DNA from: Oculina patagonica
Lineage: Eukaryota
NCBI RefSeq assembly: GCF_052425735.1
Contig: NC_135765.1
Location: 62,001-126,000 of the forward strand
Length of the DNA: 64,000 bases
Direction of reading: 5' to 3'
Part shown: positions 11,101 through 64,000 of the stretch, piece after piece
Position numbering within the stretch: the first letter of the stretch is position 1
Layout: the number at the start of each line of letters is the position of its first letter
Program-made: the position numbers and the translations under genes
The notes under the pieces: generated by a model
The model's input: only the letters and a program-made list of their open reading frames with translations
What the model was told of the DNA's origin: nothing
Databases searched by the model: none

Positions 11101-13602
11101 TTTGTATTACCGAAACCCAGCAGCCTCAAAACTTAACTGACATAAAACTTGGCATTCTACTTGGCTAGGCAGGTGTCTCCTATTTATCAATTAGACTGCA
11201 AGGTTTTGTTGGATGATAAAGTGCAGTTTGCTAAATGGCAAATTTAATTTCATTCTAAATCATGTTAATCAATTGGAGGTGAATAAAAGAGTTTACACAC
11301 TTCTACAGACACAGGAATATATAATAACTCAGTTAAAAAGCCTTGTGTTAAAAAATTCTCTAATTTAAGGCCTCAGGGATAACTTATTTATTCTTCTTAG
11401 TTCCTTGCCCCCAGGTGGTGGATAGGGCCGGGATAACTTATTTACCATATGTACAATTAAAATGTGCCATAATATTGCTATTATAAATTTCAGTAGTACA
11501 GTTGAGTAGTGAAACTACCTCTATAGCTTTTGTCTTCCTAATCAATTGTAATTGTTCCATGTAAAGTTTGAGCAGTTCTTTAGAGATCTACATGTACTTG
11601 TAACTTGACCAGGGCCATGGTTTCCTTTTAATCGCTTGGCCTATGAACAGGCCCCCTTGTGTGATACACAGCAAAATACCACAGTGGTACAGGTACATGT
11701 AAGAAGTTTGTGAGAATGTGCTTCGCCTTGGATTTTAGTTTTTGACTCACTCCACTTGTTACTTTTTCTACCTTATATATACCACTCTTGGGATCCTGTG
11801 CACATGCTACTGATCTCAATGGTTACAGACTGGTGTTAGTAGTACAAACTTGATTCCTTCAAATGTTAAACGATGACTCTAAGCCATTGTTGATTTCAGT
11901 GTTACAGAGGGATTTGATCCAACTGAAGGAGGCTGTGGAGAATCTTAAGTTACGGATAAACAGTAAGTGTTCAAACTACAGGATACTCACTCATAGACTA
12001 CCTTATTGTTACTTATTGTCACAGGACTAAGTTTCACAATTGTTGTGATCAGGCTCCAAAAAACAAACAAACAAATCAAAAAAAATTAATGGGACAAATT
12101 ATTACCCTGCTAATAAAACCTTTCTATTATTAACTTTAACATTAATGAAGATGAATTGTTCAACATGACATGAATCGAACCCATGGCCTCCCAGATACTG
12201 GTTGGGTGCTCTAACCAACTGAGCTACGAGAGACTCGTGGTGAGCTGGGCCATTTACTAGGTTGATATGTGACATGCGTCCTGCATACTGCTAGGATCAG
12301 CAACGTCGAAATCATCAAGTGTGTAGTAAATAATAAAGATGGTAAATTTTAAGCTTGGTGATAAATAATGAAGATGAATTTTTCAACAATGAGACGGGCA
12401 TGGAACAAAGAAAAATTCTGAGTCCCCGATGGGAATTGAACCCATGGCTTCCTAGATACCGGTTGGGCGCTCTAACCAACTGAGCTACAATTATAATAGA
12501 GACTCGTGGTGAGCTGGGTCATTTACTAGGTTGATATGTGACATGCATCCTGCATACTGCTAGGATCAGCAAAGTCGAAATCATCAAGTGTGTAGTAAAT
12601 AATGAAGATGGTAAATTTCAAGCTTGGTGATAAATAATGAAGATGAGTTTTTCAACAATGACACGAGCATGGGACAAAGAAAAATTCTGAGTCCTGACAG
12701 GAAATCGAACCCATGGCCTCCCAGATACCGGTTGGGTGCTCTAACCAACTGAGCTACGAGAGACAGCCTCAGTTGGTTCGAACGCCCAAGCGCCCAACTA
12801 AATTTTTCGACTAAAGAGACAGTCTAGCCTGGCAACACGGATTTTCAATTGTCAGAAAGTTTGGTTGATGTCAGGAAACAAATGCAACCATGTGCATGTT
12901 GTTTAAATCCAGAGTAAATGCAAGTTTTATTGCCTAGCCATGTTCCACTGAAATTATAGTTGAACCTCTATTTACAGACACCTCCATAATACAGACACTT
13001 ACCTATTATGCACAGTTAAATAAAAATACAATAAAGTAACAGTATTTATACAGGATAACCCCGTCAGTGTGCTAAGCACTACTATCAAAGGGGGTCCTGT
13101 TAATAAATATATCTTTAAAAAATGTATATAATTGAAATATAAAAATTCAAGAATTCGGTAAAAGATAAAAACATTTAAAAATCTTACATGGCGGAATAAT
13201 CATCTAATTAGAAAAATGTCCTTAGTGTCCCTCGAGAATTCACTCGGTATACTCCTCCATGATATGGACACTCACTCGACACTCTTCCCTTGCCTTTTGG
13301 TGTCTGAATAAGAAGTTCGACTGCGTAGCCTATTGACTGACTTCCCATGACTGCTTTCCAGCAACAAACATAACTCTTGATCACAATATGATCTTTGTTT
13401 TTATATTCTGCTCCTAACAGAAGTGTCATCAGACCTTGTAACCCAGCTTCAAGAAAAAGACAGCCTTCTTCTTCAAAAACACACCATGAAGGTTACTGTG
13501 GGCCAACTGATCAGTCTTCAGTCCAATGTCAAGACAGCAAGTACACAAAATATATCACGATCTACAAACTCCAGAAGACAGGATACCTTACCTTGCACAT
13601 AA
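8140..13602 (+). CDS. Small spliced gene, C-terminal coiled coil resembling FEZ/UNC-76 or SCHIP1 family; exons ~(gap)-8303, 11900-11962, 13421-13602
   Basis: Three exons joined by phase-1 GTAAGT...AG introns give TLLQRDLIQLKEAVENLKLRINKVSSDLVTQLQEKDSLLLQKHTMKVTVGQLISLQ, similar in pattern to the FEZ1 SEELVQQLARRDEL segment. Missed by the ORF track; start not resolved. Confidence 0.55.
8541..8858. mobile_element. Tc1/mariner-pogo type MITE
   Basis: TIR CCGTACAATTCCGGTTAT ... ATAACCGGAATTTTATGG, TA on both sides, internal TATAAGCCC repeats. Confidence 0.8.
10288..10698. mobile_element. MITE with CCCGG(G)nTACTC termini
   Basis: Inverted ends CCCGG..GGGGTACTC / GAGTACCCC..CCGGG; 8-bp flanks CTTGAGAT / CTTGAGAC. 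Confidence 0.8.
12145..12790 (-). repeat. Tandem array (~2.4 units of ~265 bp) of a tRNA-derived SINE-like unit
   Basis: Unit restarts at ~12173, ~12433 and ~12702; the minus strand carries A-box TAGCTCAGTTGG and B-box GGTTCGA..CC. Confidence 0.8.
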
Positions 13603-30000: not shown

Positions 30001-33000
30001 TAACGATTGAGAGATTACTTCAAGTTGTACCAAACGAAATATACGGGCAAGTTTTCCCATAACATAACTCAATAGTTGGTAATCTGTTACATATGGACTG
30101 ACCTTTAAAGAAAATCATTCTCAGTCTATGTAAAAGTTAGACGCGGTAGAAAGCGAAAAAAAAATTAAGAAAATACTAATTTGAAAGTGATAAATGATCA
30201 TCNNNNNNNNNNNNNNNNNNNNNNNNNNNNNNNNNNNNNNNNNNNNNNNNNNNNNNNNNNNNNNNNNNNNNNNNNNNNNNNNNNNNNNNNNNNNNNNNNN
30301 NNNNNNNNNNNNNNNNNNNNNNNNNNNNNNNNNNNNNNNNNNNNNTTTTTTCCCTAAGAAAAATACAGATGGTCGAAAGTGGTGGAGGCAAGGTAGATGG
30401 CAGATGACTGATTTATTTTGGGGACAATCATTCTAGGTCTATTTGAACTGAAACGTGTTCTGCCATGTCCTCTTTGTAAATTTTGTAGCCAAGGTGTTTC
30501 TTTTTTTTTTCATTCAGAAATTTGGAGTTGGTAATTGACAAAAAAAATGGACAAGAAAGGTTGCTTTTTTTATTTTTTGTGACCAACATACCCTAAAGGT
30601 TGTGTGACCAACATACCCTAAAGGTTGTGTGACCAACTTACTCTAAAGGTTGTGTGACCAACATACCCTAAAGGTTGTGTGACCAACTTACTCTAAAGGT
30701 TGTGTGACCAACATACTCTAAAGGTTGTGTGACCAACATACTCTAAAGGTTGTGTGACCAACATACCCTTTTTGAATACTTTAAAGGTTGTTGGCCTAAA
30801 GGTTGTGTGACCAAGATGCACTTGGAAAGGTTGCATCACCAAACACCTTATGAATTTGTTTCTCAGTTTTGAAAATTAGTGAAATAAATCTTATGTATAT
30901 TGCCTCAATATAATTTTAAGTTGTAACATGTCCATTGTATTTTAAACACATCTTCACCCGTAATACCAAGTGAACTCAGCTGTAACATGTGTTATGGCCG
31001 TTAATGACAGCCCTAAAAATAATTAACAAGAAATAAATTTTATTTAACAGATTCACTAGGTGGCTTTTGTGGAGTCAATATTTAATCAGAAGCCGAGGAC
31101 AGCTTATTGAGAGGATGTGAATAAATTAAAAGTGAGGTCACTTTTCAGGGAGTTCCGGGATTGAATGCTAATGAGATGCACACCATTTATGATGGGCATC
31201 ATGAAGTGTCCTCATTGATAAAAGTTCACCAAAACATAAATAACCCCATCAAATATGAAGTAATATAAAAATTGCCAATAACCAAATAGTACTTATTAAA
31301 CATTTCAAATGTACAAGCATAAATCCTGGACATACAGGGTGTAAGTCCCCCCCCCCCTCCCTTGTGTGCACCTTTTCAATCCTGGACATAAGTGCCCCCA
31401 CCCCTCCCTTGTGTGCACCATTTCTTACCTCATTTACTTTGGGAACATTCACAATGTTCTTGGCGTGATTTGCAAACCTCAAGGTGTTTAGCGTCTCATT
31501 ATGGCATGATGCAGAGGGTGATACAGCTGCTAACATTATAGTATGACAATTTCCACCAAAACAGTCCTTCAATATCCATGTCAGTGCCTACAACAGGAGA
31601 ATAGTCAACAAATTAGCACCTTTATAGGAAACACTTGGACTAAAATGTACAGACAGTAATGTCACTGAAGGAAATGTTTGCATTTTAAAAAAAAAAAATC
31701 AATGACAATGCTCAGACCATCCTCAAAAACCCAAGGGGCAGCTAGTTGGGAAGACAGAATTTTTGAGCAAAAGTTTACAGGTAACTTAAATTTTACAAGT
31801 AAACCCTCGCCTGAAAAAAATTCCATTGTCCTGACTAGCTGTCCCTGGGTCTCTGAGGATGTGCTTTTTACTTACAGAATCCTTGTATGGGACAGCAGCA
31901 GTGGGACCTGACTCCAAGTCTTGGCTTGCTAATGTTGACATGACTCTCTCCAATGTCATTAGTGATTTGTCAACATCAGCAGCAGTAGAACAATTGTCAG
32001 TACACTGGAAAAGACAAGACAAAACAACATTAGAGTCAAAAACAGCCATGCCATGACTCATCTGACCTTGTTATTACGTTGAGTAGTGTAACATACTACA
32101 TTGACTGGCAGTTCTTCTCTTTTTGATATCAGTGGAAAACTTTGTTTCATTTTTACCTCATCATGTATGCTCTTGCTTCCTGCCAAATCCACAAGTTGAA
32201 TCATGCTAACCATTTCACAGGGTAAGTCATCTTCAAGACGAGCCTACATTGTTAAAGAAGTATTTATTTAGTATGGCTGATCTATTATTAAAATCCAGAA
32301 TCAATACTTTGAGACATATTTCAGCAAAAAGTGTGGATAAAGAAATCAAAAACTGGTTTAATCAAGGAACCACTGTGATTTTAAAGTGCACTTGTAACTA
32401 AGAAACCGCAAATAATAATAATAAGAAAAGAAATCATTCACATGACAAATACAACAAATACAAAAGGTAAAGAGAAAATGTTACTCAGAAGAACTATTGT
32501 AGTCAGTACATGGTGTGGTTCAGTTTTACCCTTGGTAACATTTAATTTGGCAGTTTCCTTTGCTCTGATGTACATCGTACATACATGTATGATACAAAAT
32601 TATATGATTCTAATGCATTTATTAAAACAAACTTTAGAGAAGATGTGTAGCAAGTAGAACGAGAGGGACGGGGCCCACCCCCAGGAAATTATTGGGAGGA
32701 AAAACCAGGGGGGAAAAAACAAAGAAAAAAAGAAAAAAAAGTTTTTTTTTTTTATATCCGAGCGAAATAAAAAAAAGAGATGCCAGATCATACCAAGGGT
32801 AAAATTAAACCGCAACTTACATACATGTACAAGTAGTAATTGTAATCCTTTTATTTATTAAAATTCATTTGTTTCCATTTAATTATAAGCAAAGGTAAAT
32901 CATAACTGAAAATTCTGAGATTTAATGCAATATACAAGCTACAAAAATGGCCTTCCTCTTCCTACTGATGGTGCATAAAAATAATACTTAATACCCCAAG

Positions 33001-33211: not shown

Positions 33212-36200
33212 CAATCAATTAATCAGTCGACTGATAAAGTATTATTTTTAAATAAATACATGTTCACGTCTGATAACTAGTATAAAATTTAATGTTAATA
33301 TGTGTAGGTCATGTATAATATATTACACATGAACACAAAGCTTAATATCTTAATATTTATTATACAAATGTAGGTCAATATTTTTCAGTGTAATTTACAA
33401 TAATATATGCTGCATAATTTGAACACAGCTAGCTCACCTGTTTTTCTTTCCCTTTTCAATTAATCCCAATACTTCATTAACGTCTGTTACAATATGTTTG
33501 GTCAACTTGTCAACATACACACCAAGTTCACGGTGTTCACGAACTACAAAGAAGTTAAGGTGATAAAATTAACACTACTGAAAATAGCAGAAGGAATATA
33601 ATTTCAATAATACATTTATGTACATGCCCATGACCTTTCATTTATCTAACCTTGTGTGCATGATACAGCACGATGTTGTGGTTTAAATTTATCTTTGGTT
33701 TGAATTCTTGCTTGTTTCAGATTATGAGTAATGATTTAATAAAAAATATATATAATTATGGTGAAAAAAACATAATACAGCACAAATATTTTATAATTTC
33801 ATAATTTCATAGTGCTTTGTACACACTACAGTGTAATACTGTCTCATACTTTGGCTGTATAGTCCAATGATGTAATAGTAAAATAATAACTAAATTTGAG
33901 TTCCAGTCTGTAATGAACCCCAGCTGGGCTTGATAGAAGCGCAGACATTTCAACAATGCTCGATCAGTATATATTACATACTTCTCAATGAGTCTTGCCA
34001 GTTTCTTCTTCTTCCCAGCAGATCCTTCACAAACTCTTTGTGTATTTCAAGGAAACTAAAAATAAAAGTATTAATGTTATTAACAACCACAACTTACAGT
34101 AGAGCAAAATGAGCAAGCAGTAGTAACATGTGGGAAAATGTACATAAAAAATAAGGGAGTCATTGCTTTCAGGTTTCTATTGGTTGAAAATAACAAAACA
34201 AAAACAAAACAACAGCAATTTGTACACTGTACATGTAGGGGTTCTGATAGTGTGAGGCGCAGTGGCCTAATGGTAAGTGCACTGGACTCCGGATCGAGCG
34301 TCCGATTCAAGCCCTGGCCGGGGTCGACGTAATTGTGTTGTACGTGTTCTTACTTGTGGTTACTAAATGGGTACCACCAAAATTAAATTAATGCTGGGGG
34401 GTAACCTTGCAATGGACTTTCATCCCATCCACAGGGGGGAGGGATATTCCACATGGCCTCATGCTCCACAGGGGGGAGGGATATTCCACATGGCCTCATG
34501 CTCCACAGGGGGGAGGGATATTCCACATGGCCTCATGCTCCACAGGGGGAGGGATACTCCACATGGCCTCATGCTCCACAGGGGGGAGGGATACTCCACA
34601 TGGCCTCATGCTCCACAGGGGGGAGGGATACTCCACAGGGGGGAGGGATACTCCACATGGCCTCATGCTCCACAGGGGGGAGGGATACTCCACATGGCCT
34701 CATGCTCCACAGGGGGGAGGGATATTCCACATGGCCTCATGCTCCACAGGGGGGAGGGATATTCCACATGGCCTCATGCTCCACAGGGGGGAGGGATACT
34801 CCACATGGCCTCATGCTCCACAGGGGGGAGGGATACTCCACATGGCCTCATGCTCCACAGGGGGGAGGGATACTCCACATGGCCTCATGCTCCACAGGGG
34901 GGAGGGATACTCCACATGGCCTCATGCTCCACAGGGGGGAGGGATACTCCACATGGCCTCATGCTCCACAGGGGGGAGGGATACTCCACATGGCCTCATG
35001 CTCCACAGGGGGGAGGGATATTCCACATGGCCTCATGCTCCACAGGGGGGAGGGATACTCCACATGGCCTCATGCGCCACAGGGGGGAGGGATACTCCAC
35101 ATGGCCTCATGCTCCACAGGGGGGAGGGATACTCCACAGGGGGGAGGGATACTCCACATGGCCTCATGCGCCACAGGGGGGAGGGATACTCCACATGGCC
35201 TCATGCTCCACAGGGGGGAGGGATACTCCACAGGGGGGAGGGATACTCCACATGGCCTCATGCTCCACAGGGGGGAGGGATACTCCACAGGGGGGAGGGA
35301 TACTCCACATGGCCTCATGCTCCACAGGGGGGAGGGATATTCCACATGGCCTCATGCTCCACAGGGGGGAGGGATACTCCACATGGCCTCATGCTCCACA
35401 GGGGGGAGGGATACTCCACATGGCCTCATGCTCCACAGGGGGGAGGGATATTCCACATGGCCTCATGCTCCACAGGGGGGAGGGATACTCCACATGGCCT
35501 CATGCTCCACAGGGGGGAGGGATACTCCACATGGCCTCATGCTCCACAGGGGGGAGGGATATTCCACATGGCCTCATGCTCCACAGGGGGGAGGGATACT
35601 CCACATGGCCTCATGCTCCACAGGGGGGAGGGATATTCCACATGGCCTCATGCTCCACAGGGGGGAGGGATACTCCACATGGCCTCATGCTCCACAGGGG
35701 GGAGGGATACTCCACATGGCCTCATGCTACTGAAACTGGGATAACTGGTGGGCCACCAGGATCAAATGCAGACTTAACCTTTAACCTTTACATGGAGACA
35801 TTCTGATTGGTAAGTCAGAACATGTTGATTTGCTCATGCGTGTTTTTTTCAGCCAATTATAGATCTCAGTGACTTGCTGAAAACTATTTCAGTCAATCAG
35901 AATCCATGCTGTCAATTAACTTAGTTATTTACCTTATTTCAGCTCTGAATGATGTGTCATCTTCACAGGCAGAAGCTTTTTTGAAAAGACTCTTGCAAAT
36001 CCAAGGAGTAAGGCCTTCAGTTCCATCTGTTCCATACATAATGTGACTTTTACCACTGGCACATGCTCCATAGCTGAACACGCAAGTATTATAACCACCA
36101 AAACATGACGAAAGCACAAACTGACCAACATCTTCTAAAATCTAAAGAGAAAACAATGTACATGAAAGCATATTTTAAATATTATTTTTAGTTACAGTGT

Positions 36201-50800: not shown

Positions 50801-53800
50801 TTTGACGTTTGTAATTTTTGAAAGATGTAAGTGCTAGTGATTATTTATTCGTGTTTTAGCATTAGTTACGCAATCCCTTGTTTGTGCGACTCTTTTTATA
50901 GATCGCCATTCAGACACACGTGCGTTGAGATAGGAAAGCTGACATGTCACTTTTAAAATTGTTATATAACGTTTGTAAATGTGACAAGTCACGTTTTTTC
51001 CACAAGATCGCAAGTGATCACCCACGGAAAGAAATCCCTTGAGAAATTAAAACAGTCCCTTGAGAAATTAAAAAAGTCCCTTGAGAGTAGACAAGAATGT
51101 GGTTCCAAATTTTGCCCCACATAACTGCTATTCTCCTACTTTCGCTTGTAAACAAGCAAAAAAGTCGAAAAAAGGGATCTTTCCTAAAAGAAACTTTTTT
51201 GCTATTTTTGGACAAAAAGAAAGAAGAAAAATATGTTACCAGTTTAATTTGGCACCGCGCTTTGTTTCTTACCTTCGCAATTTTTACCACTGAACATTTC
51301 TTGACATTCACATGTGTACAGCAGAGGATCATTCTTGTTCACAACACAAAACCCATTGTTTTGGCAAGGATCATTATCACAACCAGTAGGATAGGAATAC
51401 GAAGGCTGCAGACGATATACGAAGTTTGCCAATTCTTCACCAACTCCATTAACGCAATTTTCTGATTTTCCGTACTTGTTGTAGGTGTTGGCCATGTTCT
51501 CACTAGTCCAACATTCCACTTCATTCTGCACAGCAAAGTACTCGTAACCCATGTCTCGAGCCAAAGTAGAGCAGTACACAACGGTTGCTTTGGGATCTAA
51601 ATTGCTGTGGAAACTGGCGTATTTATCTGTCAACAGCTTTTCTTTCTTGACTTTTTCCACGAAACAACCTTGAGCTACGGATTTTGGTACATGTTCTAAA
51701 AACAAGCATTACATTTTTTTTAAATCCATCTATTAGGTAACTGCCATGAAGATTAAAGCGCTCGGGGCGCTTATTTACTTTTGGTAGCATAAGGGAGAGC
51801 GCTTATATAAAGGGCGCTCATGAAGATAGAGGGGTTCGCATAATCACAACACCATTCAATTGTTAATTACACTCGATATCGTGTTATCACTTGTCTAGCC
51901 AGTCTCTTCTGTCTATATTATGAATGTCACTTTCGCTGCTGGGCGCTTATTAGAAGGAATGGGCTAAATCGAATCATAATGGTATATGTTATTCAATTAG
52001 ACAATATGTGATAGAACAACGAACAGTCAAATTTAAAAAAAATAGTTGGATAATTGCTTGATCGAATGGGACTTAACAGTAGTAGTGCAATACTTGTTGT
52101 TAGTAGTTGCTAAATAGTCGTGCTTATTTACTCACCAAAGGTATACACTTCAATTGAAGACTTGCTTCCTATGCCGCTTTTACATTTCTCTGGGCTGGTA
52201 CCTGATTTCGCGTAGTATTCTTTTTCAGCACGTTCGCTCGATAAGCAATTGCCATTAACGCCAAGAGCAAAATGTCTGTAGCCCTTCTGAAATGCAAGCT
52301 CACCGCATTCATATATATACGTTTTTGCTTTAGCTGGATCAAAATCCTTTTTATGTTCGGCAAGAACATCCTTCAAACCTGATTTCGGTGTCCCGAAACA
52401 ACCAATTTCGGTAAACGATGTTACTGAAAGAAAAGAAAGAACATGAAAAAAGAACACGAATTTTAGACCAGTAGAAATCAAGGAGTATCGTTAATCGGGT
52501 GACTACATGATTGTCTCAGGACAGCCTTTATAATTTACTGTAAATCGCCAGTTAGTATCACTTCATGATAATTTGATGATCTGATACAAATATATCTGCG
52601 CATGCAGCATAGGGAAATGTCCTCTCGTTCCTGTCACGCCACTCAGATAGATACCTAGTTTGATTTTTCGGTCCAATTAAGGTCTCCATTCATGTTCTCT
52701 TTATTACCTTGGCAATTCTTTCCAAAATAACCGTCCGGACAATCGCAGTGGTACACAGATATGTCAGTTTCATCATTTCTACAGGTTGCGCCATTAACAC
52801 AGGGTTTGGCATCGCAGGGAAATATTTGAACTGTGAACAAAATTAAAAAAAAATGCCAATAAGTCAGCATTTCCTCTAACCCATGATATACAAAAATGGT
52901 ATCGATGTCTTCCAATTCTAAGGGTTGCGGGAGTACCGCGGGTACTTATCTCTGGCTTTCATAGCCAGTTATAGCTCTAAATGACAAGGAATATCTGCAG
53001 CTTCAGAATGGGACGCTTGTCCACCGCAGGCTGCTCTCAGCACCCTGCCAAAAGTCTCTGCCATTTCTATTTGAACACAGTTTGAACAATAGCAATTCCA
53101 AACTATCTTGACCAAGAAGGTAACAAGAGAACCGTAAAGTTCCGACACCATAACATCAGGTCACCATGGCTGAAGGAGTAAGGTACCTGCGTAACTTTAA
53201 ATATACATACCAGATTACAATACTAACCTTCGCAGTTGGTTCCTTTAAACCAGTCTCCACAGCGACACTCGTATAACTCAGGATTCTTGGGATCACTGTG
53301 ACAATATCCATCATTAAGACAAGGATCACTGTCACAGGCAGTTAGTTGCACTGTTAGGAAAATATACACTTTTTATAAACAATCCTACTAACAAAGTACA
53401 CTATAGGAAGAAACGAAGAAAAATGTAAAGATCAATAAAAAGTTCTCTCACTAAGCAAGTGGCACATACATCTACCGCTTTATTCCCGGGATTATGTAAT
53501 TCTATTCTATAACCTTTGGATGAATATCAGTGGATCGTCTAACAATCATTACCTTCACAGTTTTTCCCAGTGAACCACTTTTTACAATGGCAATGATACT
53601 CTGAGTTGTCGTTGGCGTCATTGCTACAGTTGGCTCCATTATCGCAAGGTTGTAAATCACAGGGGAAAATCTGTTCTGAAAGTAGAAGGAAATAGAAATA
53701 TATATTATTATCTGAATTTTTTTTAAGTCAGCAAGTATTTTTTTAATTTCTACCTAGCCAACTCCTGAAAGACCTGTAATGTTAACAGAACTGATACAGG

Positions 53801-54391
53801 ATTCAGCTAGAAGTAAAGAAAGAACAAACGGACGGACGGTTGATCTCTATTGGCTTCTTTTGTTTTTGTAATTTTATAAATCCAGTGACCTGAATGCCAA
53901 ACCTTTCTGAGAACGATAAAAAACTGTTTCGACTCCGGCCTAGATAAGCTTTCATTTTTCTAAAAGCAGATGGTTCAAGCAGTTGGCAATAGTCAGTTGT
54001 TATTTTGAATTGTAATTAATAAAAGCAAGGAAATAGCAACGCGGGTATTGACTATGAATTGTTCAACCGCCCAGATACACTCTTTTTTTTATAAGAATAT
54101 AGTTTTTCCGACCCAGGCTGAATATTCTTATTTTTCTGCCGATTTTAGCCTGAAAATATTCTTATGGGACTCTTATGAGCATTCTTAGAAAATACCGTTT
54201 GACATTCCGTTTTAGCAAGTATTGCAATTGGGTAATCAGTTTCAAGTGTTCGGGGTCCAGATCTGTATCGTGTTACATTGTGCATATGTACCATTGCCTT
54301 TCGTTGCAGCCTGGCCGTTTTGGCTTTAAACAAAGCATTCCTCGCAGAGATAAAGTGACGGAAATGAAAATACCTGATTTTGTTTCAACTA

Positions 54392-54429
<38 letters not shown>

Positions 54430-55022
54430 TTCTTAAAATGTTCTTAAAAATTAGCAAATTTCAGCCTCGATATTCTTATAAACTAGATTCATATAAAATA
54501 AAAAGAGTGTAGCAGTAAATTTAGATTTGAGCCCTATTACCCGAGTGCCTTCTAAGCAGGCTTAAAGAGTGACATAGAGTGTAATCTAAAATTAACATTA
54601 AATGGACAGTGTGACTGACTTCTGTGTGACTCAGCTCAAATTGTATGTATTACGTTTGTTAAACATACTTTCACAGTTTGTGCCTTCAAACCAATCTTCA
54701 CAGTAGCATTTGTACCAGGAGGGGTCCCTTTTGTCACTAAGGCAATATCCTCGGTCATTACACGGGTTTTCGTCGCACTTTGTCATCTTTACTGTGAAAT
54801 AAACGTAAATGTTAATTTTGCAGTTACATAGCAAATTCATATCAACTCTGCCTTCTTGCTACACACACACACAAAAAAATATTTTCAAACTGAGCTTACT
54901 TTCACAATATCTTCCTGTCAGCCACGGTGCACAGAGACAGTTAAAATTTGCCGGATCATTGGGATCGTTAATACACGTGGCATGATTGTGACATGGACTA
55001 CTGCTGCATGGAAGAATTTTGT
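47853..55022 (-). CDS. Extracellular multi-domain protein: at least 7 EGF-like domains and 4 WSC-like domains; 5' exons lie beyond the Polinton or are lost
   Basis: EGF exons at ~54899-55022, 54668-54791, 53552-53676, 53228-53351, 52708-52831, 49641-49764 (C..PC...C..C.C..G..C). WSC-like exons at ~52135-52425, 51272-51696 (plus EGF), 48966-49248, 48118-48422 (GCF/Y...C..LA...Y..FA.QN..ECW). Last exon uncertain. Confidence 0.82.
54078..54509. mobile_element. Tc1/mariner-type MITE in an intron
   Basis: TA-CACTCTTTT..TTTATA.GAAT / ATTC.TATAAAA.AAAAGAGTG-TA. Confidence 0.8.
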
Positions 55023-55465
55023 CTGAAAACAAATGAAACAAGACAAAATCTTTTGATCTTAAAAGAATTTTGGTAGGAAACTCGTAAGAATCATGACATT
55101 TAACAGTCACCATAGTTTGCCCGTACTGTTTCAAATTTCCATTTTTGAAGACAGGAATGCTATACAATCGACAGTTATGTCTGCGCCCAGCTTAGATACC
55201 TTCAAAATGGCTCTTTTATGTTACTAACACACACATATAAGGTGGCGCTTTTGGCACAAATCGCGACAACTCGCTCGGCTCGCCATGGCTCGCCTCGCTC
55301 CTTGTCGCGATTAGTGACCAAAAGCGCCACCTTATATGTGTGTACAAAAATCGCGAGCGGCACCCAAAATCTATGCGGCTTGAGAGCTCACAAATCTCAA
55401 GCTCCATTGCTGTGCCAGAAAAAATTCCTATTGAACAAATGTTTTTCATTGGTATAAACGCCAAC

Positions 55466-58400
55466 ATGACTGCTGCAAGTTATTCGAAAGAAGTTTTGCA
55501 AGCACTCTTGAAGGAAATTCGCGGCTTTAAAGAAAATCCACAATGGAACAACAATTTTTTATTGGCCCAATCCGATTTCAATGAATGGCTACGAGTGTGG
55601 AAAATGACCATACCAGAAGGAAGCCGAATCAGCAAAGACCTTTTTGTCTTTCAAAAAAAAACAAAAGGAAAGTTTGTTTATTTGGTAGAGAATGAAATAA
55701 GAGATTTGAAAAGCGTAAAAGTAAGTTTTGAGATGAAAATAAAATTTACAAAAGAAAATTTTGAGACTGGTATAACACAAGAGATGGAGCATTATTTTAA
55801 AGAAAAAGAACCGCATGTTTTTAACGAAAATAATAAACAACAGATAAAACAAGATTTCGAGAGATTTATTGAAAGAGCAAAAGGTCAAATTGAGGCTTGG
55901 TCAGAGCGCGGCTCAGGCTGGGTTATTGAAAGAATAACCGCTCGCTATCAGCCATTGCGCGGAGGAACTTATTTGCCTCTCCCAGCCAATTTGGCAAAAA
56001 AGAAAGCAATAATCAACGTGCAAAACAGGGATAACGAATGTTTGAAGTGGGCTTTGAGAGCTGCACTTTTTCCTCCATGGGACGGAAAAAACCTTCAAAG
56101 AACAAGCAAATACCCGGCCAACGACGGAATTAACTACAGAGGCATCGATTTCCCCACACCTGTAAAACAGATTGACAAACTCGAGAGGCAAAACAGCAAC
56201 CTCTCAATAAATGTGTTCGGCTGGGAAGACAATCGTGTGATTGTGCACAGAATAAGCAAAAAAGAAAAAACCATTCCTCGTATTTGCCTTATTTTGATTG
56301 AGTCAGGATTAATTCAGCACTACTGTTTTGTAAAAAGAGTAAGCGCGTTACTCTTTGATCAGAGCAAACATCAACATGCAAAACACTTTTGCATGATGTG
56401 TTTGACCGGTTTCACAAGAGCGGACTTGCTCGAGAACCATGAAAAACATTGCAATGGCATGAACGGCAGGCCAACAAGGATCGAGATGCCGGAAGAGGGG
56501 AAAAACACCCTTTCTTTCCAAAATCATCACAAACAGATGAGGGCGCCATACGTGATATATGCGGACTTTGAGGCTTTGGTCAGAAAGATTCAAGGATGCG
56601 AGCGTGGGCCAGAGAGCAAGCAAAAAAGCTACACTGAGAAAACAGAACAGCACGAGGCATGTGGTTTTGCTTACACAGTTGTAAGGAGTGACGGAAGAAA
56701 TGAACGGCCAGTGGTTTACAGAGGTGAAAATGCTGTTGAAGTGTTTTTGAACTGTCTTCAAGAGGAAGAGAAAAAAATAAGAAATAGTTTGTCATCGCCA
56801 AAACCTCTTGTGATGACAGCAATAGATTGGGAAAAATTTAAAAATGCAACTGATTGCCATATTTGTGAAAAAAGTTTGATAAAAGATTACTTTTTAGACT
56901 CTTTACCTGTATGGATAAGTGAAACAGGTAGAGTATACACTTATGATGGGCAATGGCATAAAAAATGTTATTACAATGTAAAGAAAGAACACGACAGTTC
57001 GTTTCTCATTCTAAAAAGATTGACAGAAGAAGAGCACAAAGAAGCTGCAGAAGAACAAGATGACTGCTTATGCTGTGGACAACCTTTGCTTCAGCAAAAC
57101 TTCAGAGATGCAGTTAAGGACCATTGCCACATAACAGGCAAGTTTCGAGGAGCCGCGCACAACGCATGCAACCTTAAAATGAGAATAAAACCAAAAACGG
57201 ACCAAATACCAGTTGTATTTCACAACCTTAGGGGCTATGATGCACACCATTTAATGCAGGCGATGTCAAAGCTGTCTCAATCGACACAAAAAGAGGTGAA
57301 ATGCGTAGCCAACAACATGGAGAAATACATAACATTTTCATTTGGCGGTCTGCGCTTTATTGACAGCTTGAACTTTCTACAAGGAAGCCTCGATTCACTT
57401 GTAAGCGCAACACCGAAAGAGTCATTGAAAATAACAAAATCTCTTTCTTCACAAAATTTTGAACTTCTTTTTAAAAAGGGAATTTACCCTTACGAATACA
57501 TGGAATCGTGGGAAAGGCTTGACGAAACAAGTCTGCCAGACAAAGAAAAGTTTTACAGCAAGCTAAACGACGAGCACATAACAGACGAAGAGTACGATCA
57601 CGCAAAGAGGGTATGGGAAGCTTTTGGATGCAAAACGCTTGGTGACTACCACGACCTATACGTGAAAACAGACGTGTCCCTGTTGGCTGACGTTTTCGAA
57701 AACTTCCGAAAAATCTGCCTTGAGCAGTACGGGTTGGATCCTGCGAATTATTACACGTCGCCTGGCCTTTCTTGGGACGCACTCTTGAAAAAGACAGGCG
57801 TGCAGCTTGAGCTCCTTACAGACTCAGAAATGCATCTATTTGTCGAAAGGGGAATAAGAGGAGGTATTTCCATGGTTAGCAAGAGATATGCAAAGGCAAA
57901 CAATCCTTATGTTGAAGGCTATGACCCAAGCAAGCCAAAAAAATACATAATGTACCTTGATGCAAACAACCTTTATGGGTGGGCAATGAGCAAGCCACTG
58001 CCAAAAAGTGGTTTCAAATGGAAAAGAGTTATGCCGACTGAAAAAGAAATAATGAGAAAAAAGGAGTTTGCAAGAACTGGCTGGATATTGGAGGTAGACC
58101 TTGAATACCCCGCAGAACTTCATGAAGAGCACAACAGCTACCCATTGGCACCAGAGAAAAAGAAAATAAGCGAGGAACTTTATTCTGATTACCAAAAAAA
58201 ATTAAAAGATAAGCTTGATCTGGACCCACCAGACAGCGAAAAGCTTGTTTTGACTCTTGAGGACAAAAGTAACTATGTTGTGCATTACCGAAACTTGCAG
58301 TTTTATCTTAAGCAGGGCATGAAACTAAAAAAAGTTCACAAAGTAATGGAGTTCGAACAAGAATGCTGGATGGAGCCGTACATCCGGATGAACACAGAAT

Positions 58401-59270
58401 TCAGGAAAAAAGCGAAAAACGACTTTGAAATGAACTTTTACAAGCTCATGAATAACTCAGTTTTCGGAAAAACAATGGAAAACCTGCGTAACCGTGTTGA
58501 CATAAAAATAGTGCGAAGCAATGAAACAAACAAAATACGAAAATTGATTGCAAGCCCATTGTACTCAAGGCATGTAATGTTTTCTAACGATCTGGTTGGA
58601 ATAGACATGCGCAAAAGCAAGCTTATTCTTAATAAGCCTGTTTACACTGGGATGACTATCCTTGACAACAGCAAGATACTAATGTATGATTTCTTTTACA
58701 ACCATCTGAAAAAGGTATACGGTCCGCGTTGCGAGCTCTTGTATACGGACACAGACAGCCTTTTGCTCGAGATCGAAACAGATGACATCTACGAAGACAT
58801 GGAATGGAACAAAACTCTGTATGATACAAGCGACTACCCAAAAGAGCATCCACTCCATTCATACGAAAACAAAAAGGTCTTGGGAAAAATGAAAGACGAA
58901 TGCGCAGGAACCCCCATATCAGAGTGTGTTTGTCTCAGACCGAAAATGTACTCAATAATTTATGGGGCGCAAACCGAAGACCAAAAAAAAAATCAAAAAA
59001 TCGAAGGGTGTAAAAAAGAGCGTTGTAAAGAAGCAAATTGTACATGAACAGTATAAGGAAACGCTTTTTAGCGCTAAGCAGTTATGGCATGGAATGAACA
59101 TACTTAGAAGCGTAGGACATGAGATTTACGGAATGCATCTCAACAAGGTCTCGCTGTCGCCTTTTGACTCAAAGCGATGGATAGCGGATGATGGGATACA
59201 TACAAATGCTTACGGGTATAAGCTCAAAACTTTTATAGCTTTTTTAGGGTTCGCTTCGCGAAGGTGGTAA
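55466..59270 (+). CDS. polB: Protein-primed family B DNA polymerase (pPolB), with a frameshift in the A10 run at 58983-58992
   Basis: Exo I YADFE, Exo II FHNLRGYD, Exo III YVKTD; Pol motifs YLDANNLYG, KLMNNSVFGK, YTDTDS; the KSKGV and LSPFDSKRW C-terminal motifs lie in the 58962..59270 frame. Confidence 0.95.
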
Positions 59271-60242
59271 CTGTGTATTTGGAGGAATAACGAGCAATTC
59301 TTCACGCACGAAGCCTCGCTTGGGGCCATCGTGCAAGTAATAAAGCACTGGCTGATCAGGTTTAGTAACAGACCTTTCAATGCTGTAGACTTTTAATGAC
59401 CAAATCGGATCTGTAGCCCTTTTTACGCCGCCTTCCAGCTCGCCAGGTTGGTAAAGATAGCGCACATTAACGAGAGAGGGGAGCTTTTTTTCTTTTAAGC
59501 CAACAGGTCTTGTATATTTTGACGACGGTTTGGAAAAAACAGCCTTTTCTTTGATTGCGGCAGCTGGTTTCTTGCCAGTAAGACTTGTTACTTCGTTGTT
59601 CAGAGCTGTAACAACTTCGGGTAGCCTTTTAACCCACGCTGTCGACCTCTGGCCAGATGGCAGGGTCATCTCGACACCGTACTGATAACCAAACAGGCGC
59701 TCTGCCAGTGTTTGATTAAAACGTTCAACAATGGCTTGATCTCTGTGGATGTTAACACGCCCGCGCCTAATATAGGTTTTGTGATTTTCCATTTCTTTGG
59801 TAACAGCACCCATGAATTCGCGACCGGGGTCAACTTGCAGCATCTGTGGCCATTTTAGTGCACTTCGCCTGTAAATTGTCTGAAAACCTTTTGCAACCTC
59901 AGTTGAATCTTTGGAGGTCAAAGGCTCGGCCCCTTTGTAACGGCTGGCAACGTCAACAACAGTCAGAGCGTATTTGTAAACTTTTCGCCCTCGCGGCAGT
60001 TTGTCGTGTGGCAGAAAAAGAAGGTCCGCCTGGTGGACCGCGTTAGGAGTAGAAACATCGAATTTTGGGCGAGGAACGTATCGTGGTGCCGGAAGGTAGA
60101 TCTGCCAAAGGGCCTGCTTAACTAGCCACTTTTTTGCAGCATCTTCGGAAACCTTGGCGGCCTCGGCTAATTTTTTTATCGCGGCAATTCCTTTCCAGTA
60201 GCCCTGGGGGCTATAGTAGACTTTCGAGATCTTTGCATCCAT
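59244..60242 (-). CDS. Retroviral-like (rve, DDE) Polinton integrase
   Basis: QADL, VDPGREF, AIVERFNQTL catalytic triad; N-terminal YYSP; C-terminal WS..Y.I...F.REEL region; no chromodomain seen. Confidence 0.95.
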   Translation of the reverse strand: MDAKISKVYYSPQGYWKGIAAIKKLAEAAKVSEDAAKKWLVKQALWQIYLPAPRYVPRPKFDVSTPNAVHQADLLFLPHDKLPRGRKVYKYALTVVDVASRYKGAEPLTSKDSTEVAKGFQTIYRRSALKWPQMLQVDPGREFMGAVTKEMENHKTYIRRGRVNIHRDQAIVERFNQTLAERLFGYQYGVEMTLPSGQRSTAWVKRLPEVVTALNNEVTSLTGKKPAAAIKEKAVFSKPSSKYTRPVGLKEKKLPSLVNVRYLYQPGELEGGVKRATDPIWSLKVYSIERSVTKPDQPVLYYLHDGPKRGFVREELLVIPPNTQLPPSRSEP

Positions 60243-62438: not shown

Positions 62439-63038
62439 TCAATAAAAAAATTCTGTGCCGTAAGGGTGGCGATGAGAAATAACAAGATGCGAAAACTTAT
62501 TTTTTTTTAGCTTTGAAATGACTTCTTTGTAATCTTCATGGGAAAGTTCGCCAGCGTAATCCTCAAAGATTGCCTTCGTGGTCTTGGCAGAGGGGGTGTA
62601 AAAGAAAACGATTGCAGCAACATTTTCACGGAATGAGGATGTAATGCTTGTCATTTTTTGAGTCAGCACCCACACGCTCAAACCTGCGTGGCGAGCAGAG
62701 AAAGCAAGATTTACTAACTCCCCCGTTCGACCTTTTACATCTTTCGAAGCAGCGCAGTCGTCGAGGATTATAAGCGTGTTCGCACCCTCAAAAAGAAATC
62801 TTGAAAGCTTTAACCAAGATTCAACCTCGTGCTGCTCACAAATGTAAACATAAAAGCGCGGATCTTCCTCAGCAAAGCGATAATAAGTCTTGTTGTGCGC
62901 GAAAGTCGGGCAGATGAGCACGATATAGTCAAACTTGCCTCGGAAAGGGCCACAAAGCTGATTGACCACGTACCTTGTTTTTCCTGAGTTTGTTGGTCCC
63001 ACAATGAGGGCGTTGAAGGGAATATTGGAAGGATCCAT
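62439..63038 (-). CDS. FtsK/A32-like genome packaging ATPase
   Basis: Walker A GPTNSGKT, Walker B LIILDD, ARH...VLTQ...REN motifs. Confidence 0.92.
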   Translation of the reverse strand: MDPSNIPFNALIVGPTNSGKTRYVVNQLCGPFRGKFDYIVLICPTFAHNKTYYRFAEEDPRFYVYICEQHEVESWLKLSRFLFEGANTLIILDDCAASKDVKGRTGELVNLAFSARHAGLSVWVLTQKMTSITSSFRENVAAIVFFYTPSAKTTKAIFEDYAGELSHEDYKEVISKLKKNKFSHLVISHRHPYGTEFFY

Positions 63039-63069: not shown

Positions 63070-64000
63070 TTATAAAAGCACAGATTCTAACTGCCTGTTA
63101 ATTATGTTCATCTGGGCGTCGCTGATTACGTAAATGTGGCAGTTCAAATTACCTGAGCCGCTTGTTTTCCTCTCTAGCTCAAGCTGGACACCGTCCTTTG
63201 TGTTCACAAGGCGCTTGCCGCTTCCGTGCATCGAGTGGTCAGCCATGGAACGCAGATCAATCAGAAGGCCGAACTTGTCTTCTGTGTAAAACTTTTGCAG
63301 GGTCATGTGCTGCGTTTTATTTTTTTCTTTCATGTAGAATCTTTTAACTTCTTCCCATATGTCCATTCCTTCGATGCCGTTGTTGTACAGCATGTTTGGC
63401 GAGCCGTTGACAGTGACGCTTACTTTTGTAAGGTCTGGGTTAATGTACTTTTCCGAGATCCTTGCACCTTTGGCATATTGCTCTATAAAAAGTAGCAAGA
63501 TACCTTTTAGGGACCTCCTCTGAGGGTTGACCTTAAGATTCAGACGTGTGTCGGATCCTTTTGCAAAAGTAACAACTTCGGCACGCTGGATGTGGTCGTA
63601 AGCGAACTCTTTGCCGCCCGAGTAAGCGCTGAACGCCTCATCTGCAATTTCCTTGCTTCTTATCATCTCGTACTCCAGCTGGATGTTTGTCAGCTTGTAT
63701 TTCAGTTTTGTCGGATCTGAGCCTCTGACAACATGTTCGGCTGCCGCGAGCTTCAGTTCGAACACAAGATCGTTGTATAGTGCCTGTGGATAAAATGCTC
63801 CGTGGTCAGTTAAAATCTGGTGTTCCAGGCGTATCCGGTATTTATTTCCATATAGCTCATTCAGCTTTTTTTCTGCGTCAACTCCTGAAGTTTTCTTATC
63901 GCCAGCATTTGAGCGAATTTTGTTGAGGTCCTCGCTTTGAATGCCCTCTGGCACCCTGTCGTCGCGCTCCTCCTGCGAAAGGAAAAAATCCTCAAATATT
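63070..64000 (-). CDS. Probable major capsid protein (double jelly-roll), N-terminus outside the window
   Basis: Frame stays open to 64000; beta-strand-rich pattern (YKLTNIQLEY, LKGILLLF, NPDLTKVSVTVNG, GLLIDLRS); adjacent to the packaging ATPase. Fold assignment is inferred. Confidence 0.75.
   Translation of the reverse strand, partial: IFEDFFLSQEERDDRVPEGIQSEDLNKIRSNAGDKKTSGVDAEKKLNELYGNKYRIRLEHQILTDHGAFYPQALYNDLVFELKLAAAEHVVRGSDPTKLKYKLTNIQLEYEMIRSKEIADEAFSAYSGGKEFAYDHIQRAEVVTFAKGSDTRLNLKVNPQRRSLKGILLLFIEQYAKGARISEKYINPDLTKVSVTVNGSPNMLYNNGIEGMDIWEEVKRFYMKEKNKTQHMTLQKFYTEDKFGLLIDLRSMADHSMHGSGKRLVNTKDGVQLELERKTSGSGNLNCHIYVISDAQMNIINRQLESVLL

What the first reader, a model, noticed from the sequence alone, without database searches (positions are those of the whole stretch)
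55227..55343. 115-bp terminal hairpin with a mirror-symmetric GCTC core at the Polinton end
Seen: arms 55229-55269 and 55302-55343 are near-perfect reverse complements (~41 bp). The centre CTCGCTCGGCTCG-CCATG-GCTCGCCTCGCTC is a mirror repeat (one mismatch) around the palindrome GCCATGGC, and both outer ends carry the ACACAC terminal motif. Known: protein-primed replicons use short terminal repeats; GCTC/GAGC iterations inside a terminal hairpin are the Rep-binding element of AAV ITRs. Inference: a structured origin or end-processing signal. The AAV resemblance may be convergent, since no HUH Rep gene is visible here.
Basis: partly seen in the sequence, partly recalled or inferred. Interest (0 to 1): 0.7.

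Follow-up and report, generated by a model that had tools for sequence, protein, structure and literature searches.

The report
Self-pairing hairpin ends of coral Polintons
Both ends of a family of virus-like, self-copying DNA elements (Polintons) in this animal genome, likely a coral, begin with a hairpin-forming palindrome whose two arms change in step across copies and never flip, and it likely serves as a fold-back tip that lets a single DNA strand restart protein-primed copying and repair its own end.

Summary
The hairpin is real (-49.8 kcal/mol, z -13). It is the first 115 bp of both 213-bp TIRs of a 15.4-kb Polinton with a 5-bp target duplication. The genome holds 349 matches to its core, mostly in convergent pairs about 16 kb apart. 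Across 75 distinct hairpins, bp 7-19 vary freely (20 types) yet stay 98.5% paired (66% with arms shuffled). The terminal AC repeat, a box at nt 20-26 and one extra base on the inner arm are kept. No flip/flop was seen in 284 ends and no solo copy in 119, so it is neither an AAV-type ITR nor a MITE. The GCTC 'mirror' is a by-product of a direct-repeat array. The polymerase keeps a predicted terminal-protein fold and a vOTU domain, so priming is likely by protein. Relatives in metagenomes show the same layout with different sequence (14 of 19 at 50% identity or more). Best reading: a fold-back duplex origin and self-repair tip on displaced single strands, like Streptomyces telomeres; the function is inferred. 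Terminal palindromes are in a 2026 preprint for protist PLVs, mostly without pPolB, and this scan noted a hairpin in Giardia Polintons.

The parts
55224..55228 (.). 5-bp target site duplication CTAAC (left copy; right copy follows G000:C8:132601)
   Evidence: 39 of 43 paired ends in the genome show a 5-bp TSD
55229..55441 (+). Left terminal inverted repeat, 213 bp; first 144 bp identical to the right TIR, 9 differences after that
55229..55234 (+). Terminal AC repeat, the likely slide-back start for protein priming; first base A in 74 of 75 hairpins although the inner arm often does not match it (paired in 54 of 75)
   Evidence: role inferred from known protein-primed replicons (recalled)
55235..55247 (+). 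Freely varying but paired 13-bp stem segment (bp 7-19)
   Evidence: 960 of 975 cells paired; 20 self-complementary types
55248..55254 (+). Conserved box (GTT.TG type; C at its first position in this copy) at nt 20-26 from the end
   Evidence: same position in 13 of 14 relatives from metagenomes
55255..55269 (+). Inner stem, outer arm; tolerates inherited mismatches; much longer in some relatives
55270..55301 (+). Apex: pyrimidine-rich CTCG/GCTC direct-repeat array with 1-3 GGCTCGCC-type units in other copies; always on the strand that forms the 5' end
55302..55343 (+). Inner arm, a near copy of the end in the opposite orientation
55317..55317 (+). Single unpaired base on the inner arm just after bp 26; identity varies (T 41, A 26, C 5, G 1), presence kept
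   Evidence: 73 of 75 by strict test; the other two show it in the gapped alignment
55373..59047 (+). Protein-primed B-family DNA polymerase ORF (1224 aa). The frame ends early in this copy; the C-terminal part continues in ORF 58962-59270
55580..55960 (+). Predicted terminal-protein domain (little-finger/PAD fold) with invariant GSGW; Ser at 55913-55915 is the candidate linking residue
   Evidence: fold signature per PMC11161782
55982..56347 (+). Predicted vOTU protease domain with invariant Cys and His
57017..57178 (+). Endonuclease VII-like segment inside pPolB
   Evidence: PF02945, E 6e-06
59244..60242 (-). rve-type integrase
   Evidence: PF00665, E 9.7e-06, below the curated cut-off
62439..63038 (-). 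A32-like packaging ATPase
   Evidence: PF04665, E 5e-11
63070..64000 (-). 417-aa ORF (continues past the window), possibly the major capsid protein; not confirmed
   Evidence: no Pfam match; Atlas unavailable

Best explanation
The hairpin is likely a fold-back origin and self-repair tip: when strand-displacement copying by the protein-primed polymerase leaves a single-stranded genome, each 3' end would fold onto its own inner arm and rebuild a 26-bp duplex copy of the end on the spot. Shown: the hairpin begins at base 1 of both TIRs; its arms co-vary; it has one fixed orientation; the AC repeat, the box at nt 20-26 and the strand-fixed apex are kept; the polymerase keeps a TP-type fold and vOTU residues. 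Inferred: (1) the TP-pPolB complex starts on this local duplex without needing the 15-kb panhandle; (2) a shortened 3' end is extended on the inner arm, which copies inner-arm changes to the outer arm without inverting the apex, while slide-back on the AC repeat restores base 1; (3) the bulge and the non-palindromic apex let proteins tell the 3'-end hairpin (purine-rich apex) from the 5'-end hairpin, and the true end from the inner copy.
For: Pairing is kept while sequence is free: bp 7-19 are 98.5% paired against 65.7% (maximum 71.8%) with arms shuffled, over 20 types as little as 3/13 alike. On 19 copies, 18 of 41 pairs change on both sides, 0 of 500 shuffles match this, and slid controls fall to 29-52% paired. 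Multi-base insertions are mirrored on both arms (L114, L116, L118, L126), as copying would give. Inherited mismatches are rare in bp 2-26 (70-75 of 75 paired) and common beyond the bulge (40, 55 and 53 of 75 at bp 30, 33, 34). No flip in 284 ends. One end carries a 17-nt overrun of the palindrome into internal TIR sequence, the product expected of fold-back extension (L092). Tandem duplications of the inner arm, with or without the apex, in 6 ends fit hairpin formation during copying. TP fold (Z 8.7, rmsd 2.9, 112 aligned to the Pol eta little finger), OTU fold (Z 7.4) and invariant GSGW, Cys and His across 61 sequences. TP sequence tracks TIR type: 82-93% identity in type A, 53-56% in type B, while palm and integrase stay mostly above 85% and 93%. 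Same layout with different sequence in relatives: 14 of 19 at 50% identity or more, 0 in coding controls. Precedent: fold-back extension repair of TP-primed Streptomyces telomeres (PMC5449611).
Against: No biochemical or episome data; every functional step is inferred. Some one-sided mismatches are inherited at both TIRs (bp 12, 23, 25, 26), so arm copying is occasional, not every cycle. The bulge is not universal: 8 of 14 relatives have extra inner-arm bases near the box and 6 have only mismatches. The TP/TIR link could be simple physical linkage, and the pairs are not independent. Adenoviruses manage with a panhandle and no hairpin (recalled), so a hairpin is not required for protein priming. 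Distant relatives (42% identity or less) showed no hairpin within 600 nt upstream of pPolB (0 of 23), though in several the terminus is probably not there. The fold matches are of middling Z. The 17-nt overrun is a single case without a TSD and could be host repair.
Confidence: 0.5

Rival explanations
1. Excision or integration signal: the palindrome extrudes as a hairpin on the lagging strand, or as a cruciform in the chromosome, and gives the integrase (or the EndoVII-like domain) a duplex end with a single-strand junction to cut. The bulge and apex mark the strand.
For: The hairpin starts exactly at the TSD. Integrase is nearly invariant (95-100% over the 121 scored copies), as are the AC repeat and the box. 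An EndoVII-like segment is present. Polinton excision and TP removal are unexplained (PMC11161782). It is compatible with the best explanation; both could hold.
Against: The inner arm is a near-perfect 26-bp copy of the end, yet no solo hairpin with a TSD was found in 119 ends. It does not by itself explain mirrored insertions or the first base being set independently of the inner arm. An EndoVII-like motif also appears in distant homologues, so no link to the hairpin is shown.
Confidence: 0.2
2. Self-priming hairpin, as in parvoviruses and as proposed for Halocafeteria elements: the folded 3'-OH primes second-strand synthesis, and an asymmetric resolution step keeps one orientation, as at the MVM left end.
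For: The 3' end pairs to its last base, which is primer geometry. One 17-nt overrun. The MVM dimer junction is resolved asymmetrically (PMC1185569, passages; Cotmore 1994 seen only as a title in its reference list). Model D of bioRxiv 10.64898/2026.07.28.741278.
Against: TP and vOTU residues are invariant, so protein priming seems in use. Pfam found no Rep nickase in the ORFs. The last pair is a mismatch in about a quarter of hairpins (paired in 54 of 75), which disfavours self-priming. No flip. In the preprint, palindromes go mostly with non-pPolB elements.
Confidence: 0.15
3. Duplex protein-binding array or promoter: the box pair and GCTC repeats are binding sites in double-stranded DNA, and the arms are matched by occasional quasi-palindrome correction with no role for the folded form.
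For: The apex repeats vary in 8-10 bp units. A further copy of the box lies at the inner end of the TIR just before pPolB, here and in relatives.
Against: It gives no reason for near-perfect pairing of a freely varying 13-mer, for inner stems of up to about 60 bp of unrelated sequence in relatives, or for a bulge that survives while both flanks are homogenised.
Confidence: 0.1
4. An independent MITE, or a captured AAV-like ITR that works with a Rep protein.
For: The 115-bp unit has terminal inverted arms; GCTC repeats and a CCCGGG centre in some copies recall the AAV2 ITR.
Against: No solo copies in 119 ends. 41 convergent pairs and no divergent pair among the first 100 listed cores. No flip. 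The repeats are unpaired in the apex, with no T-shaped B/C arms.
Confidence: 0.02

Closest known systems
Polintons/Mavericks (Polintoviricetes), including coral polintoviruses (PMC11131425)
   Same: pPolB with TP-vOTU front end, rve integrase, A32 ATPase, TIRs, 5-bp TSD, about 15-16 kb; TIR and TSD sizes lie in the ranges given in PMC10748475.
   Different: The TIR begins with a 105-142-nt hairpin and AC (or ACT) repeats. 'hairpin' and 'palindrom' do not occur in the main text of PMC11131425 or PMC10748475.
Terminal palindromes of Halocafeteria virophages and PLVs (bioRxiv 10.64898/2026.07.28.741278)
   Same: Palindrome inside the TIR next to the TSD in integrating relatives of Polintons; a hairpin role was proposed.
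   Different: Those are in a protist, 52 nt in the subtype drawn, mostly in elements without pPolB, and modelled as self-priming. Here the host is an animal, TP-pPolB is kept, the stem is imperfect with a conserved box and bulge, and covariation and fixed orientation are measured.
Streptomyces TP-capped telomeres (Tap/Tpg; PMC5449611)
   Same: Protein-primed ends with terminal palindromes that fold on a single-stranded 3' end; fold-back extension repairs shortened ends.
   Different: Bacterial, internal origin plus end patching, several short palindromes, dedicated Tap primase; no homology is implied. A works-like comparison only.
AAV2 ITR (PMC10892565)
   Same: Terminal palindrome of similar size (125 nt), GCTC repeats.
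   Different: AAV is T-shaped, its RBE pairs across the stem, it has a trs, uses Rep and shows flip and flop. No T shape, paired repeats, flip or Rep gene was found here; a trs could not be tested.
MVM/LuIII left-end hairpin (PMC1185569)
   Same: Imperfect terminal hairpin with a small asymmetry; resolved asymmetrically and reported in one orientation.
   Different: Needs NS1 nicking and host polymerases; single-stranded virus without a terminal-protein polymerase.

Membership tests
Polinton/Maverick | Protein-primed PolB with TP and vOTU domains | tested here: met
   Homologues with PF03175; little-finger and OTU fold matches, Z 8.7 and 7.4; invariant GSGW, Cys, His
Polinton/Maverick | Retroviral-like integrase | tested here: met
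   PF00665 E 9.7e-06, under the curated cut-off
Polinton/Maverick | TIRs of 100-1500 bp and 5-8 bp TSD, 13-25 kb | tested here: met
   213-bp TIR, 5-bp TSD, 15,373 bp; ranges from PMC10748475
Polinton/Maverick | Packaging ATPase | tested here: met
   PF04665 E 5e-11
Polinton/Maverick | Major and minor capsid proteins, Ulp1-type protease | tested here: inconclusive
   A 417-aa candidate ORF has no Pfam match; Atlas look-up unavailable; no fold was run
AAV-type ITR | Flip and flop orientations | tested here: not met
   105 + 179 standard ends, 0 flipped; the single flipped-pattern hit is an unflipped end with a 17-nt overrun
AAV-type ITR | GAGC/GCTC Rep-binding element paired within the stem; T-shaped B/C arms | tested here: not met
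   Repeats are direct, on one strand, in the apex; unbranched fold
AAV-type ITR | HUH Rep gene | tested here: inconclusive
   No Pfam Rep match in the element's ORFs scanned; the genome search for PF08724 rang nowhere, controls included
AAV-type ITR | Terminal resolution site nicked by Rep | not testable with these tools
   Needs biochemistry
MITE | Stand-alone short copies flanked by their own TSD | tested here: not met
   0 of 119 called ends; the one 5-bp match (L102) is the end of a full element
Streptomyces-type telomere (works-like only) | TP-primed synthesis on a folded single-stranded 3' end, with fold-back repair | not testable with these tools
   Sequence patterns fit; no assay
Streptomyces-type telomere (works-like only) | Tap/Tpg proteins and multiple short GNA-loop palindromes | tested here: not met
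   One long hairpin; TP fused to pPolB with a little-finger fold

The most novel reading that the evidence does not exclude
A clade of animal Polintons uses a hybrid end: a parvovirus-sized terminal hairpin worked by the element's own TP-pPolB. It lets a single strand leave the chromosome, start replication and re-template its own tip without flip/flop. The bulge and apex act as a strand code, and the variable stem co-evolves with the TP domain as a family-specific key. That would supply the missing mechanism for how Polintons are excised and re-initiated from a single strand.
Probability: 0.2. Interest if true: 0.85.

Novelty: new variant of a known kind. Interest (0 to 1): 0.62.

Why it matters
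How Polintons leave the chromosome, start replication and shed the terminal protein is an open question (PMC11161782 says TP removal is unclear). These ends give a short, defined substrate plus a natural mutagenesis set that already shows which features matter: pairing but not sequence at bp 7-19, a fixed box at nt 20-26, a strand-fixed apex and a single orientation. That makes origin and excision models testable with oligonucleotides and purified domains. It also extends terminal palindromes from protist PLVs that mostly lack pPolB to an abundant animal Polinton that keeps protein priming.

Tried and rejected
Core pattern in viral contigs: 0 hits. Integrase query in viral contigs: none. Twelve distant viral-contig relatives (22-50% identity) showed no comparable terminal hairpin, but their ends are mostly not assembled, so this is uninformative. 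A genome search with a distant pPolB (P0080) returned only the families already seen. The Rep_N genome search rang in no control and is not used as evidence. Atlas look-up of the capsid candidate was unavailable. Foldseek gave no match at E<=0.001; its best rows were Y-family little-finger chains. Sequencing runs: no RNA holder listed; only contigs were available, so ends, strands and episomes could not be seen, and runs labelled 'viral metagenome' also cover host flank, so they are no evidence of virions. One search failed on an offset error in my script and was redone. The strict pattern missed several visible hairpins, so a pattern-free score and anchored alignments were used. The TP-versus-stem rank correlation (rho 0.48) uses non-independent pairs and is not taken as proof of co-evolution. 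Mirror symmetry as the functional feature was rejected. Look-ups of earlier notes by place and by sequence found nothing.

Full report
Observation. The window has two arms, 55229-55269 and 55302-55343, that pair at 40 of 41 positions, with one A.A mismatch and one extra base on the inner arm at 55317. The outer 26 bp are perfect. Folded as DNA it gives -49.8 kcal/mol, z -12.95, and none of 200 shuffles folds as well. The core 55270-55300 is a mirror repeat with one mismatch.

Context. Downstream lie a 1224-aa polymerase ORF with an EndoVII-like segment, an rve integrase and an A32-like ATPase. The polymerase frame of this copy ends early near its C-terminus. A search of the genome placed the second TIR at G000:C8:132389-132601, giving a 15,373-bp element. 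The TIR is 213 bp with the first 144 bp identical, and the flanks repeat CTAAC. The hairpin is therefore bases 1-115 of both TIRs. The closest named polymerase homologues are labelled from a stony coral, so the host is likely a coral. A 417-aa ORF may be the capsid protein, but this was not confirmed.

Copy number and MITE test. The core pattern (up to 2 mismatches) has 349 matches, and the reversed-pattern control has 0. Among the first 100 listed there are 41 convergent pairs (median 16.0 kb), no divergent pair and one same-strand neighbour from a nested insertion. I called 119 ends from 130 loci examined; 11 were not called (truncated, divergent or missed). Of 43 left/right pairs, 39 have a 5-bp TSD. 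Of the 4 misses, one is the overrun end below, one has inverted flanks and two are unresolved. No end is a solo hairpin: the single 5-bp flank match (L102) belongs to a full element.

Flip/flop test. For the two commonest TIR types, patterns tying the inner arm to the internal sequence gave 105 and 179 matches in the standard orientation. The flipped patterns gave 1 and 0. The one hit is an unflipped end whose palindrome runs 17 nt further into a copy of internal TIR sequence. So 0 of 284 ends are flipped; rarer TIR types were not covered by these patterns. My caller required a pyrimidine-rich apex and so could not itself see flips, but the TSDs and the TIR sequence that follows confirm its orientation.

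What is conserved. The 119 ends give 75 distinct hairpins of 105-142 nt. Bases 1-6 are AC repeats and bases 20-26 a GTT.TG-type box. Bases 7-19 come in 20 self-complementary types, as little as 3 of 13 alike, yet 960 of 975 cells pair; shuffling arms between copies gives 65.7% (maximum 71.8% in 1000). On 19 copies picked mostly one per outer-arm type, 18 of 41 pairs change on both sides; 0 of 500 shuffles reach that and slid registers fall to 29-52% paired (related copies inflate such counts). One extra base follows bp 26 on the inner arm in 73 of 75 by strict test, and in the other two in the gapped alignment; its identity varies. Beyond it, inherited mismatches are common (bp 30, 33 and 34 paired in 40, 55 and 53 of 75). 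Base 1 is A in 74 of 75 but paired in only 54. Multi-base insertions appear mirrored on both arms. The apex holds 2-7 CTCG words and almost no CGAG; units are lost (L013) or gained (L062) by direct-repeat slippage, so the mirror is a by-product.

Relatives. An alignment of the polymerase front end found 410 related metagenome stretches, of which the best 80 were kept; 53 had at least 250 nt upstream. A strong hairpin lay upstream of pPolB in 14 of 19 at 50% identity or more (two loci share the same hairpin; one hit, L187, is a different short hairpin), in 4 of 11 at 43-49% and in 0 of 23 at 42% or less; coding controls gave 0 of 53. In several distant loci other coding sequence seems to lie upstream, so the terminus was probably not in view. 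In 14 hairpins aligned by anchor the box sits at nt 20 in 13; the terminal repeat is AC-type or ACT-type and is mirrored on the inner arm. Inner stems reach about 60 bp of unrelated sequence. Extra inner-arm bases near the box occur in 8 of 14; 6 have only mismatches. The layout is thus clade-wide and the bulge is not.

Priming mode. A model of the first 378 residues (mean pLDDT 74) matches Y-family little-finger domains at residues 39-165 (Z 8.7, rmsd 2.9, 112 aligned) and OTU proteases at 173-294 (Z 7.4, rmsd 3.7, 103 aligned). This is the TP-vOTU signature described in PMC11161782 (sections 5-7 read). A Gly-Ser-x-Trp motif (GSGW here) between helix 2 and the last strand, and the OTU Cys and His, are invariant in 61 sequences. 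TP identity follows TIR type (82-93% in type A, 53-56% in type B) while palm and integrase vary much less; linkage alone could explain this.

Mechanism. Protein-primed polymerases displace one strand; adenoviruses rebuild an origin by pairing the two ITRs (recalled). Here each displaced 3' end can instead fold onto its own inner arm and rebuild the terminal 26 bp locally. That accounts for pairing without sequence constraint, fixed spacing of the AC repeat and box, and a single orientation. Extension of a shortened 3' end on the inner arm would copy changes outward without inverting the apex, and slide-back priming would reset base 1. This is how Streptomyces telomeres are repaired (PMC5449611, abstract and passages). 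The overrun at L092 and six inner-arm duplications are traces such folding would leave. All of this is inference; I put it at 0.5. The rivals are an excision or integration signal (0.2), self-priming with asymmetric resolution (0.15), a duplex binding array (0.1) and MITE or AAV-type (0.02).

Comparison and novelty. The element meets the tested Polinton criteria; capsid genes are unconfirmed. It fails AAV-type membership on flip/flop and on the placing of the GCTC repeats (PMC10892565, passages). Terminal palindromes next to TSDs are described for Halocafeteria virophages and PLVs, mostly without pPolB, with a hairpin-priming model (bioRxiv 10.64898/2026.07.28.741278, passages and section 7). 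Term searches in PMC11131425, PMC10748475, PMC11296320 and PMC6431247 (passages) and library searches (listings only) showed no report of such a hairpin in animal pPolB Polintons. The 2006 and 2007 founding papers, repeat databases and all supplements were not seen and may hold one. Verdict: a real, selected end structure, a new variant of a known kind, interest 0.62.

Noticed in passing
L092:1414-1546 (G000:C4:59872271-59872403): An element end whose palindrome runs 17 nt past the normal terminus with a copy of internal TIR sequence; no TSD with its partner end.
   Followed up: yes
L259/L260 (G000:C14:23383.. and 23399..): One element is flanked on both sides by about 870 bp of outside DNA in inverted orientation at 98.9% identity, as if TIR conversion ran into the host flank.
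   Followed up: partly
L039, L091, L114, L116, L118, L126: Tandem duplications of the inner arm, with or without the apex, inside the TIR; the terminal bases are not duplicated in any of the six.
   Followed up: partly
window 55412-55441: A further box copy followed by a TATTGAA-type motif closes the TIR just before the polymerase start and recurs in relatives; a possible promoter or binding site.
   Followed up: no
G000:C1:15281784-15314216 and G000:C8:488015-519781: Polintons inserted inside other Polintons of the same family.
   Followed up: no
L145-L174, L113-L132: The TP domain is far more variable among genome copies (46-93% to the window copy) than the palm (85-99%) or the integrase, and follows TIR type.
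   Followed up: partly
L202:1-200 and L203:1-260: A more distant relative begins with AGT-type repeats and has a 24-bp hairpin about 130 nt inside; another has GAGC-rich repeats upstream of pPolB.
   Followed up: no
window 34428-35800: A 37-bp minisatellite with 20-bp sub-units, about 37 copies.
   Followed up: no
window 12173-12764 and 30550-30820: Three tRNA-like repeats about 265 bp apart, and a 25-bp tandem array.
   Followed up: no
window 51000-55113: The element sits beside short EGF-like coding pieces on the minus strand, so it is probably inserted in an intron of a host gene.
   Followed up: no
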